From NCBI GenBank assembly GCA_045540315.1, contig JAZQHA010000108.1:1-23091 (forward strand): a stretch of 23,091 nt of DNA, read 5' to 3'. The notes beneath the pieces are model-generated. The model worked only from the letters and a program-made list of their open reading frames with translations, was not told the DNA's origin and made no database searches. Positions 10,679 to 17,182 of this stretch are shown in pieces (positions within the stretch are counted from its first letter, which is position 1; the number at the start of each line of letters is the position of its first letter). This stretch comes from Acutalibacteraceae bacterium. Lineage in GTDB: Bacteria > Bacillota > Clostridia > Oscillospirales > Acutalibacteraceae. The translations under genes were made by a program, and so were the position numbers.

Positions 10679-10969
10679 TTGATTAATATAGCAAGTAATA
10701 GCGATAGAATCGCTTATGGTATTAAACATTTTAATCTTGATGAAGTGGTTGATTTGCCTAATTTAAATAGATATCAATTAACTCCTGGCAGTACTGTATT
10801 TATTATTGAAAATTCTAAATACTATATGTTAAATGGTTCTAAGAAGTGGGTTGAAATTAATCCTTTTGGTAAAACCATTGTTTCTGGAGATGGTGGAAAT
10901 GAAGAAAATCCTGATAATCCAGACATCCCTGAGAATGATGAGGTTATCTATGACGGAGGTACTATCTGA
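10679..10969 (+). CDS. Hypothetical small protein (about 96 aa), first gene of rightward late block; TTG start assumed
   Basis: AAGGAGG at 10664-10670, 8 nt before in-frame TTG at 10679. The ORF-track ATG at 10625 has no SD. TGA stop. Confidence 0.35.
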   Translation: MINIASNSDRIAYGIKHFNLDEVVDLPNLNRYQLTPGSTVFIIENSKYYMLNGSKKWVEINPFGKTIVSGDGGNEENPDNPDIPENDEVIYDGGTI

Positions 10970-11325
10970 TGGCTACTACTCTTAATACAACTTTTAAACT
11001 AAAAAGAGGTACAGCCGCAAGATGGGCTGAAGTAAATCCAATTTTAGAGCAAGGCGAGCCAGGCTTTGTATATGATCAAAATCGTTTAAAAATTGGAGAT
11101 GGAGTAACTCCATGGAACGACTTACCTTATATTGATGGTAAGCGTGAAGTTGCTGATTATAATAACTTATCTGATTTTCCCGTAGTAGGAGAAACAGGTG
11201 TTATTTATAAAGCATCTGACGAATTAAGTCTTTATCAATTTAATGCTACTACTAAAGAATATGAAAAATTAAGTAGTGGTCAAGGAATTGATGATATAAA
11301 AATAATAAATGGAGGAAACGCTTAA
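10969..11325 (+). CDS. Small protein consisting of the HylP-like tail-fibre N-terminal domain (118 aa)
   Basis: KRGTAARWAEVNPILEQGEPGFVYDQNRLKIGDGVTPWNDLPYI resembles the N-terminus of streptococcal phage hyaluronidase HylP (KRMKAAEWARSDVILLESEIGFETDTGFARAGDGHNRFSDLGY); TAA stop. Confidence 0.6.
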   Translation: MATTLNTTFKLKRGTAARWAEVNPILEQGEPGFVYDQNRLKIGDGVTPWNDLPYIDGKREVADYNNLSDFPVVGETGVIYKASDELSLYQFNATTKEYEKLSSGQGIDDIKIINGGNA

Positions 11326-12701
11326 TGGCTGAATTAAATACTATTATTACTCTTCGCCAAGGTACTACCGCTGAATGGGCAGATTCTGTTGTTCGTTTAC
11401 GTGAAGGCGAAATGGGTCTTGAGTATCTGACTGATGGTACTGTAAAAATTAAAGCTGGTATCTTAGGTGAAGATGGTCAAGGTAAGCTATGGGCTGATTT
11501 ACCTTATATTGGTAGTGATGTTAAGTCTGCTAATGTATTCCAGGTTGAATTAGCTGAAGGTGATATTGATGATATCGCTGCTATTGAGGCTAAAGTCGCT
11601 GAAGAAAATGCTGAAAAGCAAGATGGCGATGTAGCTATTGTAAAAGCATTAATTGCTGAAGGTAGATATTCTTATACTTCTTATGTATATGAAGCTGCTC
11701 TAGATGTTGAAGGTGAAGATTCTACTCATGGCTGGAGCGCAATGGATGGAAACTATAGCGCTGCTAATGTTTTCTTAAAAGATAAAATTACTTTAGCTGG
11801 TGATTACGGCAAAGATTCTCGCAATGATAAAATTACTTCTATTGGTAATTTACGTATTGGTGATGAAATTGCGGCCGGCACTTCTTTACAATCTTTATTG
11901 ATGGATATGTTATCTCAAAGATTACAACCAAGTGCTACTCCTACTCAACCTGCCGCAAGTATTACTTTATACACCGATGGTTCCACTAAGAAAGTTACTG
12001 CTGGTGCTGTTGAAGTAGGTACTACTATTAATCCTTATTATGTAGCTTCTTTAAGCGCAGGTTCTTATACTTATGGTCCTGCTACTGGAATTACTGCTTC
12101 TTCTTATGCTGTAAATTCTACTGGTCGCAAGACTGTTGATGGAGCTACTGCTGACACTACTGAAGATAGTGCTACTACTGCTACTGGCTCTTTTAATAGC
12201 TTTGTAGTAGATGATGATACTAGCTATAAGTTAAGTGTATCTATCCCTCATGAAGCTGGTGCTGTTGCGAATGATAATTTAGGTAGTGAATCTAATCCAA
12301 AAGTACAGATTGCTGCTGGTACTAAGACTGCTAATTCTGGTACTGTAAGTGGTTATCGCGCTTGGTTCTGTGGTTATAAGAATGGAACTAACGCTTTAGC
12401 AGATGCTACTGCTATTACTGGCGCACAAGTTCGTGCTCTTGGTAATTCTGCAAATGGTTCTTGGAAATCTTCTATGGATGTTTCTCAAATGAAGCAAATG
12501 TTCTTTGCGGCTCCTGCTGGTAAGGGTTACAAGCCCGTTATCAAGGATGCTTCTACTACTGCTCCTCAGACTGTTTTAGGACCAATTACTGTAAGTGTTG
12601 AAGGCAAAGATGGTTTTGATGCTATCGATTATGATGTTTGGTATGTAGCAAATGCTTCTGCAGCTTCTGGTTCTGCTAAACTAAACATTACTAGAACTTA
12701 A
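11325..12701 (+). CDS. Tail fibre-like protein with HylP-like N-terminal domain (458 aa)
   Basis: N-terminus RQGTTAEWADSVVRLREGEMGLEY...GKLWADLPYI; Thr/Ser/Ala/Gly-rich C-terminal region; TAA stop. Confidence 0.65.
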   Translation: MAELNTIITLRQGTTAEWADSVVRLREGEMGLEYLTDGTVKIKAGILGEDGQGKLWADLPYIGSDVKSANVFQVELAEGDIDDIAAIEAKVAEENAEKQDGDVAIVKALIAEGRYSYTSYVYEAALDVEGEDSTHGWSAMDGNYSAANVFLKDKITLAGDYGKDSRNDKITSIGNLRIGDEIAAGTSLQSLLMDMLSQRLQPSATPTQPAASITLYTDGSTKKVTAGAVEVGTTINPYYVASLSAGSYTYGPATGITASSYAVNSTGRKTVDGATADTTEDSATTATGSFNSFVVDDDTSYKLSVSIPHEAGAVANDNLGSESNPKVQIAAGTKTANSGTVSGYRAWFCGYKNGTNALADATAITGAQVRALGNSANGSWKSSMDVSQMKQMFFAAPAGKGYKPVIKDASTTAPQTVLGPITVSVEGKDGFDAIDYDVWYVANASAASGSAKLNITRT

Positions 12702-12718
12702 TAAGGAGGAACTGAATA

Positions 12719-16702: not shown

Positions 16703-16816
16703 TTAATTTAAAAGGTGAGGTCTGGAAAGATGACCTCTCCTATTCTCCAAAAATTTGGAATCGATAATTTTAAAGGGGAAATTTATAATATAATAGCTTA
16801 TATTATACCCTTTTTT

Positions 16817-16861
16817 AACCCGATTTCCAGTCATTGGAGATCGGGTTATTTTTTCGTTTTT
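16817..16861 (+). terminator. Rho-independent terminator
   Basis: AACCCGATTTCCA...TGGAGATCGGGTT 13-bp stem (one G-U), then ATTTTTTCGTTTTT. Confidence 0.6.
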
Positions 16862-16876
16862 CAAGGAGGAAAAAGA

Positions 16877-17182
16877 ATGGCTACTGAAAAAGAAATTCTA
16901 AGTAGAGTTATCAATAAACATGATATTGAAGCCAATTGGAATAAAGCAGTTAATTTTATTCCTAAAAAAGGTGAATTTATTCTTTATGATATTGATGAAA
17001 ATTTTAATTATGAAAGAATTAAAGTCGGTGATGGAATTACTCCAGTAATTAATTTACCTTTTTATTTAGCTTCTGAAATCGATTCAATTTAGGAAAAATT
17101 AAGAGTTCTTGATGAAATGCTGGATGTTGAAGTTGATACTAATTTGAATATCTTAGTATTCACTAGACCTTTATCTATATAA
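16877..17182 (+). CDS. Small HylP-like N-terminal-domain protein (101 aa) with in-frame TAG (17090-17092)
   Basis: AAGGAGG RBS before ATG 16877. The domain is ...ANWNKAVNFIPKKGEFILYDIDENFNYERIKVGDGITPVINLPF. Reading through TAG runs to TAA at 17180-17182. The ORF-track start at 16715 runs through a terminator hairpin and is rejected. Confidence 0.5.

What the first reader, a model, noticed from the sequence alone, without database searches (positions are those of the whole stretch)
10969..17182. Multiple fibre genes share one HylP-like N-terminal anchoring domain, including two stand-alone copies of the domain
Four proteins begin with the same domain of about 60 aa: 10969..11325, 11325..12701, 15287..16702 and 16877..17182. 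The pattern is KRGT..W....P.L..GE.G.......LKIGDG...WNDLPY, reminiscent of the N-terminus of streptococcal phage hyaluronidase and tail-fibre proteins. Two of them (118 and 101 aa) consist of little else. This suggests several alternative or stacked fibres attach to a common baseplate site. The short copies could be adaptors or competitive regulators of fibre loading. The large fibres 12719..15217 and 15287..16702 also share the internal motif SIKELA(V/T)WIE(E/D)HG(T/G)DAAEMA and similar C-termini.
Basis: partly seen in the sequence, partly recalled or inferred. Interest (0 to 1): 0.5.

Follow-up and report, generated by a model that had tools for sequence, protein, structure and literature searches.

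The report
Phage fibre genes sharing one N-terminal domain
A gut phage that reads the TAG stop codon as glutamine encodes seven neighbouring tail-fibre genes, four of which begin with diverged copies of a common fibre domain (Mtd_N); this is an ordinary kind of fibre cluster, but gene order suggests the proteins join end to end into composite fibres.

Summary
Four products (10969, 11325, 15287, 16877) start with one ~60-aa domain, Pfam Mtd_N (PF18454), which is the start of the HylP N-terminal cap. There are exactly four copies in the window.

Sharing this N-domain among several fibres is already annotated in cultured phages (Rhodococcus phage ReqiPoco6). The 118-aa protein is not a remnant. 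It equals the whole HylP cap, belongs to at least 594 sequence clusters of nearly fixed length, and is under purifying selection.

New here: four proteins end in a conserved C-terminal tail (hydrophobic x3, N/D, G/C, G). Each is encoded immediately upstream of an Mtd_N-starting gene. This held at every tail-bearing junction found in five lineages that share this cluster. Tail types pair with specific Mtd_N types, and two apparent fusions exist.

My best reading (about 0.5) is that Mtd_N docks on the preceding protein's tail, giving two segmented fibres with the short proteins as connector and cap. This fits the data better than four fibres sharing one baseplate socket. No structural or physical test was possible. 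Interest is moderate.

The parts
10625..10969 (+). gA: small fibre-cluster protein ending in the tail ...VIYDGGTI. The likely true start is TTG 10679 (96 aa), preceded by AAGGAGG at 10664-10670.
   Evidence: ORF. Orthologues of 93-114 aa in L001/L003/L007 begin at the position equivalent to 10679; sequence. Tail motif. dN/dS 0.15 vs L001. No Pfam or PHROG hit.
10969..11325 (+). gB: 118-aa stand-alone protein. It comprises Mtd_N (aa 1-58, nt 10969-11142), a roughly 50-aa beta module, and the tail IKIINGGNA (nt 11296-11322). It is equivalent to the whole HylP N-terminal cap.
   Evidence: Pfam Mtd_N 4.6e-13; PHROG tail-fibre/hyaluronidase families down to 1e-14; HylP 9-109 aligned. 594 homologous clusters, and the 120 listed are 117-120 aa at 73-98% identity. 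53 invariant columns in the 44-sequence alignment. dN/dS 0.13.
11325..12701 (+). gC: 458-aa fibre. It has a diverged Mtd_N (aa 1-65, nt 11325-11519), a conserved N-terminal third and a variable C-terminal body. This is a receptor-binding-protein-like pattern.
   Evidence: Pfam Mtd_N 0.015; phrog_35541 6.5e-36 over aa 92-456. 34% identity to a hypothetical protein of Faecalibacterium phage FP_Brigit. Identity to L003 falls from 67-82% (first 160 aa) to 5-42%.
12719..15217 (+). gD: 832-aa coiled-coil fibre without Mtd_N. It has an in-frame TAG at 15179-15181, 11 codons before the stop. It carries the internal motif SIKELAVWIEEHGTDAAEMA (within nt 14789-14902) and the tail VLVLNGGSATV (nt 15182-15214).
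   Evidence: The tail downstream of the TAG is conserved in relatives that have no TAG there. Motif shared with gE. The C-terminal 80 aa are 75-82% identical to L003, whereas the first ~440 aa are 17-47% identical.
15287..16702 (+). gE: 471-aa coiled-coil fibre. It has Mtd_N (aa 1-72, nt 15287-15502), TAG at 15647-15649, the internal motif SIKELATWIEDHGGDAAEMA (within nt 16088-16201) and the tail VVFVFNCGSASTLVD (nt 16655-16699).
   Evidence: Pfam Mtd_N 0.0025. 2362 homologues, including full-length ones. TAG121 = CAA in L001. 117 of 120 listed homologues end in the tail motif. Both termini are conserved and the middle varies in length.
16877..17182 (+). gF: 101-aa stand-alone protein. It comprises Mtd_N (aa 1-66, nt 16877-17074), TAG at 17090-17092 and a 29-aa C-terminal extension. 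It has its own AGGAGG ribosome-binding site.
   Evidence: Pfam Mtd_N 0.0063. 100% aa identity to L001 with 5 synonymous and 0 non-synonymous differences, 2 of them after the TAG. L003/L005 have an uninterrupted 102-aa ORF. Proteins with the same type of N-domain are 83, 294 and >431 aa long in L008, L015 and L014.
17205..18671 (+). gG: 488-aa Thr/Ser/Ala-rich repeat protein. It is the last conserved member of the seven-gene module and has neither Mtd_N nor the tail.
   Evidence: Position conserved in L001 and L003/L005.
18735..19946 (+). 403-aa fibre-like protein with two in-frame TAG codons, downstream of the module.
   Evidence: 95% identical to the 406-aa protein of L001, with TAG conserved at two sites and CAG/TAG at a third.
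16816..16848 (+). Terminator-like hairpin followed by a T-run, between gE and gF.
   Evidence: 15-pair stem, 6 G-C pairs.
19955..20000 (.). Bidirectional terminator-like hairpin closing the fibre operon. In the relative L001 a DGR cassette lies at the equivalent position in the gene order.

Best explanation
SHOWN. The region is a conserved seven-gene tail-fibre module (gA to gG) of an uncultured phage that decodes TAG as Gln. Relatives sit on contigs over 200 kb. Four products (gB, gC, gE, gF) begin with anciently diverged paralogues of the Mtd_N / HylP-cap domain. Four products (gA, gB, gD, gE) end in a conserved tail: three hydrophobic residues, N/D/E, G/C, G, x, A, then the C-terminus. Each tail-bearing gene is immediately followed by an Mtd_N-starting gene.

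INFERRED. In the trimeric assembly, the Mtd_N domain of protein i+1 docks on the C-terminal tail of protein i. The genes would then be read off in order as two segmented fibres, gA-gB-gC and gD-gE-gF, analogous to T4 gp34-35-36-37. On this reading:
- gB (acceptor domain plus donor tail) is a connector.
- gE is a long shaft with both ends conserved.
- gC, with its variable C-terminal body, is a distal receptor-binding segment.
- gF (acceptor only) is a minimal cap or adaptor at a position where other phages carry a long distal protein.
Which end of each chain meets the baseplate is unknown.
For: 1. Domain identity and copy number.
2. The tail motif occurs only at the C-termini of gA, gB, gD and gE among all six-frame ORFs of four loci.
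3. Adjacency across 9 loci: 18 tail-to-Mtd_N junctions, 2 apparent exceptions, 5 Mtd_N genes without an upstream tail, 99 junctions with neither (Fisher p=3e-15). Both exceptions are artefacts of my ORF-start calls, so 20 of 20 tail genes are followed by an Mtd_N gene. The loci are related, so they are not independent.
4. Cognate types recur even when the carrier protein changes. IINGGxA precedes gC-type Mtd_N, including in L015 where the tail sits on a 111-aa protein without Mtd_N. LNGGSA precedes gE-type. (N/D)CG tails precede gF-type in W, L003, L008 and L015, and in L014 where the tail sits on a 55-aa protein.
5. Fusions: P0263 is a gB-like plus gC-like single ORF with no stop of any kind at the junction. 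P0242 looks like gA-like plus gB-like by eye.
6. 41 of 150 representative relatives carry 2-6 tandem Mtd_N copies, so the domain stacks behind other modules in cis.
7. In HylP the segment matching all of gB is the cap from which the shaft continues (PMC11669647).
8. One example from an unrelated cultured phage: Arthrobacter phage Ranunculus gp33 ends ...NIDGGTP and gp34 starts with Mtd_N.
9. Conservation pattern: gB 80% throughout; gE conserved at both ends; gD conserved at its C-end only; gC conserved at its N-end only.
10. General knowledge that receptor-binding proteins attach N-terminally to the baseplate or to other fibres (PMC12143355).
Against: - There is no structural or physical evidence. 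AF2 monomer models of gB (pLDDT 52) and of the P0263 junction (below 50) are uninformative.
- All the metagenomic loci that obey the rule descend from one ancestral cluster, so adjacency may be inherited synteny.
- P0263 is a singleton on one 8.7-kb contig, and P0242 has no genomic context.
- The tail is not needed by Mtd_N in general. ReqiPoco6, SuperSulley, S-CAM22, L010, L012 and L013 lack it.
- At the two overlapping junctions the Gly-Gly codons (GGA GGN) double as the Shine-Dalgarno sequence of the next gene. Part of the conservation there could therefore be at nucleotide level. This does not apply to gD and gE, where the codons are GGT GGT / TGT GGT and lie about 90-215 nt upstream of the next start.
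Confidence: 0.5

Rival explanations
1. First reader's model. Each Mtd_N independently anchors its own fibre to the same kind of site on the baseplate. The result is several alternative fibres, with the short copies competing for or regulating loading.
For: In Rhodococcus phage ReqiPoco6 five fibre/spike proteins carry visibly near-identical copies of this N-domain with different enzymatic C-termini, and are annotated as such. Receptor-binding proteins generally attach through conserved N-termini (PMC12143355). From my own knowledge, Mtd of BPP-1 is attached through its N-terminal domain.
Against: Here the paralogues are only about 38-42% identical to each other over partial alignments, but 62-92% identical to their own orthologues. 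That argues for distinct partners. The model does not explain the tail-then-Mtd_N rule, the cognate tail types or the fusions. gB is more conserved than any long fibre, which is unlike a dispensable competitor.
Confidence: 0.25
2. The adjacency has no physical meaning. The C-terminal tail is an intrachain folding or trimerisation clamp, partly shaped by an embedded ribosome-binding site. The cluster order is simply inherited. The short proteins are assembly chaperones or decoration proteins rather than links in a fibre.
For: All the metagenomic rule-obeying loci share ancestry. GGAGG sits inside the tail codons of gA and gB, 8-9 nt before the next ATG. Other fibre clusters use other shared C-terminal motifs without Mtd_N: FP_Brigit has ...EML.EVFG and L010 has ...WGEI.
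Against: The tail persists with non-Shine-Dalgarno codons far from the next start. It sits on unrelated carriers (55, 111, 208, 565 and 832 aa) yet always precedes Mtd_N. The fusions put tail and Mtd_N 6 aa apart in one chain.
Confidence: 0.2
3. The two short ORFs are non-functional fragments left by recombination among fibre genes.
For: They are short, and fibre loci are mosaic.
Against: gB has 594 homologous clusters; the 120 listed are 117-120 aa, and the 44-sequence alignment has 53 invariant columns. dN/dS is 0.13 for gB. gF shows 0 non-synonymous and 5 synonymous differences. Both keep their position in relatives whose gE is only 44-57% identical. At least 20 further ~116-132-aa clusters below 55% identity exist. 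gF has its own ribosome-binding site.
Confidence: 0.03

Closest known systems
Rhodococcus phage ReqiPoco6 fibre cluster (gp001, 002, 003, 005, 006)
   Same: Several adjacent tail-fibre/spike genes each start with the same Mtd_N-type domain. gB residues 8-93 match with E=3e-8 and there are 4 matching places in the record. The record annotates them as 'N-terminal domain similar to P-SSM4 tail fiber N-terminus'.
   Different: There the N-domains are visibly near-identical, no C-terminal GG tail is present, and no stand-alone short copy is seen in the stretch examined. Here the copies are diverged, two are stand-alone, and each follows a tail-bearing gene.
Streptococcal phage hyaluronidases HylP1/HylP2 (PDB 2c3f, 2yvv, 6x3m)
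   Same: gB aligns over its whole length with the N-terminal globular cap. Foldseek ranks the HylP entries first or near first for the gB-like part of P0263 (prob 1.00 for the 6x3m chains and 2dp5, weaker for 2c3f), although no match reaches E <= 0.001.
   Different: No coiled coil plus catalytic triple-stranded beta-helix follows, and no Pfam Hyaluronidase_1 hit is found. gB stops where the HylP shaft begins.
Bordetella phage BPP-1 Mtd (the namesake of Pfam Mtd_N)
   Same: The N-terminal domain family. From my own knowledge, Mtd trimers are attached through this end to the distal part of the tail fibres.
   Different: No C-type-lectin variable region, template repeat or reverse transcriptase is found in the window. 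The DGR in relative L001 targets a different 516-aa protein.
T4 long tail fibre gp34-gp35-gp36-gp37, and adaptor systems (SP6/K1-5 adaptor, G7C gp66/gp63.1, CBA120 tailspikes, phiKp24)
   Same: It works like them if the inference is right: separately encoded trimers joined in series or branched, with gene order colinear with assembly order and small connector proteins. This comparison rests on my own knowledge and on PMC12143355 and PMC9700779.
   Different: There is no sequence relationship. The joint proposed here is a short C-terminal tail plus an Mtd_N domain. Gp10_C-type branching domains are present in the window, but in other genes.
phAss-1 group of TAG-recoded gut phages (PMC10607447)
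   Same: TAG is read as Gln in late and structural genes. A tail fibre is a single ORF in some genomes and split into two adjacent ORFs in another.
   Different: The fibre domains differ (pectate lyase). No homology to this cluster was tested.

Membership tests
Pfam PF18454 Mtd_N | Score at or above the curated gathering threshold (26.3 bits) | tested here: met
   gB scores 49.3 bits, E=4.6e-13.
Pfam PF18454 Mtd_N | The same threshold for the other three copies (gC, gE, gF) | tested here: inconclusive
   They score 15.7, 18.1 and 16.8 bits. All are below the cut-off, but Mtd_N is the top hit in each case. Homology to gB is supported by z = 8.7-13.8, BLASTP E 1e-7 to 4e-5, and a paralogue HMM that finds only these four.
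Pfam PF18454 Mtd_N | Trimeric beta-prism fold | tested here: inconclusive
   The AF2 monomer of gB has pLDDT 52. HylP entries rank first or near first in the Foldseek search, mostly at prob 1.00, but the model is low-confidence in that part and no match reaches E <= 0.001. A trimer could not be modelled.
PL16 phage hyaluronate lyase (HylP) | N-terminal globular cap | tested here: met
   gB 9-115 aligns to HylP2 9-109, E=3.9e-5; 2c3f E=5.2e-5.
PL16 phage hyaluronate lyase (HylP) | Catalytic triple-stranded beta-helix | tested here: not met
   No Pfam or NCBIfam hyaluronidase hit in any of the seven proteins. No PDB sequence hit for gD or gE.
DGR variable receptor-binding protein (Mtd-like) | Template/variable repeat pair with adenine-specific differences, plus a reverse transcriptase nearby | tested here: not met
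   No such repeat in 10400-20100. No RVT_1 hit in any of the window ORFs scanned. The relative L001 has one, but its target is a 516-aa protein without Mtd_N.
Segmented / adaptor-linked tail fibres (T4 long-tail-fibre-like) | Separately encoded trimers physically joined head to tail | not testable with these tools
   Only indirect support: the adjacency rule, cognate tail types and fusions.
TAG-to-Gln recoded phages (genetic code 15) | In-frame TAG in conserved genes, aligned with Gln codons in relatives | tested here: met
   TAG pairs with CAA/CAG at 6 of 7 variable sites. Recoding fills the ORF gaps left by the standard code.
TAG-to-Gln recoded phages (genetic code 15) | Suppressor tRNA (anticodon CUA) encoded by the phage | tested here: not met
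   No tRNA gene is found in the 23-kb window. The rest of the genome is not available, and some recoded phages lack one (PMC10607447).

The most novel reading that the evidence does not exclude
A portable two-part joint lets phages assemble composite fibres from separately encoded segments. The joint is a roughly 8-residue C-terminal tail (three hydrophobic residues, N/D, G/C, G) on one trimer, recognised by the Mtd_N domain of the next. It comes in at least three cognate flavours: IINGG with gC-type, LNGGSA with gE-type, and (N/D)CG with gF-type. If so, assembly order could be read directly from gene order, segments could be split, fused or swapped at the joint, and ~120-aa proteins such as gB would be dedicated connectors. 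The in-frame TAGs lie just before the gD tail and just after the N-terminal domains of gE and gF. They could additionally make joint formation depend on suppression late in infection.
Probability: 0.4. Interest if true: 0.6.

Novelty: new member of a known kind. Interest (0 to 1): 0.4.

Why it matters
Fibre clusters in which several proteins share a conserved N-terminal attachment domain are well known, so the bare observation adds little. The useful outcomes are three.

1. The small 118-aa protein belongs to a large, uncharacterised and highly conserved family of stand-alone HylP-cap proteins. They are currently unnamed in the databases searched.

2. There is a simple, testable sequence rule: a C-terminal GG tail is followed by an Mtd_N-starting gene. 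If it reflects docking, it would allow prediction of how multi-gene fibres of uncultured gut phages are wired. It would also offer defined junctions for engineering host range.

3. Any annotation of this cluster with the standard code truncates three of the seven genes.

Tried and rejected
- AF2 monomer of gB with a 44-sequence alignment gave pLDDT 52 and was unusable.
- AF2 of the natural fusion P0263 gave a confident body (residues 130-525) but a junction below 50. MAFFT placed the gB homologues on the second Mtd_N. The Foldseek search added only the HylP match and weak Ig-like hits.
- A suspected third shared module, the 'blade' of gB also present in gA, gD and gG, is not supported by an HMM (best E=6.4). 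I dropped it.
- The search for related loci with the diverse alignment A3 failed because no conserved stretch was available. Single divergent proteins P0312 and P0306 found nothing in IMG/VR. An independent context survey of tail-bearing proteins was therefore not possible.
- The exact-sequence look-up of gC found no contig. Megablast of the whole window against deposited phages found nothing.
- NCBIfam gave no hits.
- A literature search for 'Mtd_N' was swamped by mtDNA papers. The mycobacteriophage Douge paper does not mention this domain.
- The pseudogene or fragment reading of the short ORFs is rejected on conservation and dN/dS.
- An RBS-only explanation of the tail is rejected because the motif persists with non-Shine-Dalgarno codons far from the next start.
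Full report
**What is at the coordinates**

Under the standard code the region gives ORFs 10625..10969, 10969..11325, 11325..12701, 12719..15181, 15287..15649, 15797..16702, 16715..17092 and 17205..18671.

This read-through is correct.
- ORF calling with TAG as a sense codon also fills the standard-code gaps elsewhere in the window: 18735..19946, 20745..21242, 21258..21605, 21864..22439, 22436..22861 and 718..1218.
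- A close relative was recovered through the gE homologue P0001. It is L001, an ENA scaffold of 72.7 kb; other contigs carrying P0001 reach 213 kb. It has the same gene order and gene lengths.
- Between the window and L001, TAG alternates with CAA/CAG at 6 of 7 sites where only one genome has TAG. This includes gE codon 121, which is TAG in the window and CAA in L001.
- More distant relatives (L003, L005, L006) have uninterrupted ORFs.
- No tRNA gene lies in the window.

TAG-to-Gln recoding of late genes in gut phages is established (bioRxiv 10.1101/2021.08.26.457843; PMC9523058; PMC10607447).

**The shared N-domain**

Pfam Mtd_N (PF18454) is the top hit of all four proteins. It is above threshold for gB (49.3 bits) and below it for gC, gE and gF. 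PHROG families of tail fibres, tailspikes, minor tail proteins and 'hyaluronidase' match gB down to 1e-14.

Five of the six pairwise comparisons of the first 75 residues exceed all 500 shuffles, with z = 6.9-13.8. An HMM built from the paralogues retrieves exactly four ORFs per genome and nothing else. The coding DNA of the four copies shows no repeat, so the duplications are old.

By sequence, gB residues 9-115 align with residues 9-109 of HylP2 and with HylP1. That stretch is the N-terminal globular cap that precedes the coiled coil (PMC11669647).

gD and gE share a 38-aa block at 66% identity and have similar C-termini.

**Are the short genes real?**

gB has 594 homologous clusters. The 120 listed are 117-120 aa long and 73-98% identical, and the 44-sequence alignment has 53 invariant columns. 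Scoring gB against 1.84 billion cluster representatives gives 18,239 relatives. Among the best 150 are at least 20 further full-length stand-alone proteins of 116-132 aa at below 55% identity.

dN/dS against L001 is 0.13 for gB. For gF there are 0 non-synonymous and 5 synonymous differences, two of them after the TAG. Both genes keep their position in lineages where gE is only 44-57% identical. gF has its own AGGAGG ribosome-binding site downstream of a terminator-like hairpin. Expression itself was not testable.

**How ordinary is the observation?**

tblastn of gB finds this domain in 438 deposited phage genomes, under annotations such as tail fibre, tailspike and minor tail protein. In Rhodococcus phage ReqiPoco6, five adjacent fibre genes are explicitly annotated as sharing this N-terminus. 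Several fibres sharing one Mtd_N-type N-domain is therefore a known arrangement.

**What is different here**

- The four copies are only about 38-42% identical to each other over partial alignments. Each is 62-92% identical to its own orthologue in L003 over the first 40 residues.
- A second shared element exists. gA, gB, gD and gE end in ...VIYDGGTI...IINGGNA...LVLNGGSATV and ...VFVFNCGSASTLVD. A pattern for this motif hits only these four genes per genome among all six-frame ORFs, always 0-5 residues from the end.
- The tail-bearing genes (A, B, D, E) are exactly the genes that precede the Mtd_N-starting genes (B, C, E, F). For seven ordered genes that arrangement is 1 of 35 possible.

Across nine loci the junction table is: 18 tail-to-Mtd_N, 2 tail only, 5 Mtd_N only, 99 neither. 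Both 'tail only' cases are artefacts of my ORF-start choice, because the true downstream genes do start with Mtd_N.

Tail flavour and Mtd_N flavour also go together:
- IINGGxA precedes gC-type. This includes L015, a contig in an NCBI genome assembly, where the tail sits on a 111-aa protein that has no Mtd_N.
- LNGGSA precedes gE-type.
- (N/D)CG tails precede gF-type in W, L003, L008 and L015, and also in L014, where the tail sits on a 55-aa protein.

Two apparent fusions exist. P0263 is a 525-aa ORF in which a gB-like part ending LIDGGHA is followed six residues later by a gC-type Mtd_N and body. No stop codon of any kind lies at the junction. It is a singleton. P0242 looks by eye like gA-like plus gB-like.

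Among the 150 best representatives, 49 end in the tail and 41 carry 2-6 tandem Mtd_N copies. One example from an unrelated cultured phage was seen: Arthrobacter phage Ranunculus gp33 ends ...NIDGGTP and gp34 begins with Mtd_N.

**A nucleotide-level caveat**

At the two overlapping junctions the Gly-Gly codons are GGA GGN and form GGAGG 8-9 nt before the next ATG (10955-10959 and 11311-11316). Part of their conservation could therefore serve translation initiation. In gD, gE and several relatives the same peptide motif uses GGT GGT, GGC GGC or TGT GGT, and those genes are followed by separate ribosome-binding sites (in gD and gE the motif lies about 90-215 nt upstream of the next start). The motif is therefore constrained at the protein level.

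**Interpretation**

The conservation profiles fit a chain model:
- gB is uniformly conserved, as expected of a connector.
- gE is conserved at both ends with a length-variable middle, as expected of a shaft.
- gD is conserved only at its tail end.
- gC is conserved only at its Mtd_N end, with a divergent body. In the confident part of the P0263 model that body gives only weak Ig-like Foldseek matches.

The most economical reading is that Mtd_N docks on the tail of the protein encoded just upstream, giving segmented fibres gA-gB-gC and gD-gE-gF. This agrees with the general rule that fibres attach N-terminally to the baseplate or to other fibres (PMC12143355). It is inference, and I put it at about 0.5.

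Three limits apply. The metagenomic loci that support the rule share ancestry. The tail is absent from many Mtd_N systems. No structural model of the joint could be obtained.

**Verdict**

'Common baseplate site' and 'competitive regulators' are not favoured, while 'stacked' and 'adaptor' are. In kind, this is a new member of a known class of multi-fibre clusters built on the Mtd_N domain. The tail-to-Mtd_N rule is a moderately interesting, testable addition.

Noticed in passing
window 15179, 15647, 17090; also ORFs 18735..19946, 20745..21242(-), 21258..21605(-), 21864..22439, 22436..22861(-), 718..1218(-): The phage uses TAG as a sense codon (Gln). TAG alternates with CAA/CAG against the close relative L001 at 6 of 7 variable sites. 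The genes with standard-code-only ORFs on the minus strand at 1211..10399 carry none. No tRNA gene lies in the window.
   Followed up: yes
L001:14722-18438 (the equivalent window position is the 19946/20017 intergenic terminator): The close relative carries a roughly 4.6-kb insert that the window lacks: a complete diversity-generating retroelement. It has a reverse transcriptase (411 aa, RVT_1), a template repeat at 16630-16755 and a variable repeat at 16905-17030 at the 3' end of a 516-aa target gene. Within the repeat core every mismatch falls at a template adenine. The target has no Mtd_N.
   Followed up: partly
window 7871..10399 (-): An 842-aa protein with major-vault-protein shoulder and repeat domains (PF11978, PF17795), transcribed divergently from the fibre operon. 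It is 42% identical to proteins of uncultured huge phages of 462-735 kb (LR756500/1/3).
   Followed up: partly
window 20745..21242(-), 21258..21605(-), 21864..22439(+), 22436..22861(-): Four small paralogous proteins with the T4 gp10 C-terminal domain (PF21939), each with 2-3 in-frame TAGs. In other phages gp10-like domains are fibre attachment or branching points. They may be the baseplate-side partners of the fibre cluster.
   Followed up: partly
window 10955-10959 and 11311-11316: The Gly-Gly codons of the gA and gB C-terminal tails (GGA GGN) form the Shine-Dalgarno sequence GGAGG of the overlapping downstream genes. One stretch therefore serves both as a conserved peptide motif and as a ribosome-binding site.
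   Followed up: yes
window 10664-10681: gA probably starts at TTG 10679 (96 aa), 8 nt after AAGGAGG, not at ATG 10625. Orthologues in L003 and L007 begin at the equivalent residue.
   Followed up: partly
window 718..1218(-) and 368..715(-): A YqeY/GatB-like protein (PF09424) with two in-frame TAGs lies next to a T7 gp5.9-like RecBCD inhibitor (PF25708). The YqeY domain is related to the tRNA-binding tail of GatB, which may be relevant to Gln suppression.
   Followed up: no
window 1211..1993(-), 2006..2599(-), 3125..3988(-): A PRPP-synthetase-like protein, an isochorismatase/nicotinamidase-like protein and a metallophosphatase. These may be nucleotide or NAD salvage (auxiliary or anti-defence) genes.
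   Followed up: no
L017 (Faecalibacterium phage FP_Brigit, MG711465.1 18413-21878) and L010:6540-13580: Other fibre clusters use different shared C-terminal tails on consecutive proteins: ...EML.EVFG in FP_Brigit, and ...YGEI/WGEI/WGEF in L010. FP_Brigit has no Mtd_N in the genes checked. Short conserved C-terminal tails may be a general feature of multi-gene fibre loci.
   Followed up: no
window 17205.. (gG N-terminus), 18735.. (N-terminus); L014:5829 and 7138: By eye, a third recurrent N-terminal motif (I-x-S-V/I-K-L/I-x-G-x-x-x-Y-x-I/V-x-D) starts the proteins that follow gF-type proteins. Those gF-type proteins end in hydrophobic strands (ILVFTRPLSI, LLLTKGIIIP, LLIFTY). This may be a second joint type.
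   Followed up: no
window 14874-15041: An internal 87-nt (29-aa) tandem duplication in gD (81% identity). A 64-nt segment is shared between gD (14931-14994) and gE (15720-15783) at 72% identity.
   Followed up: no
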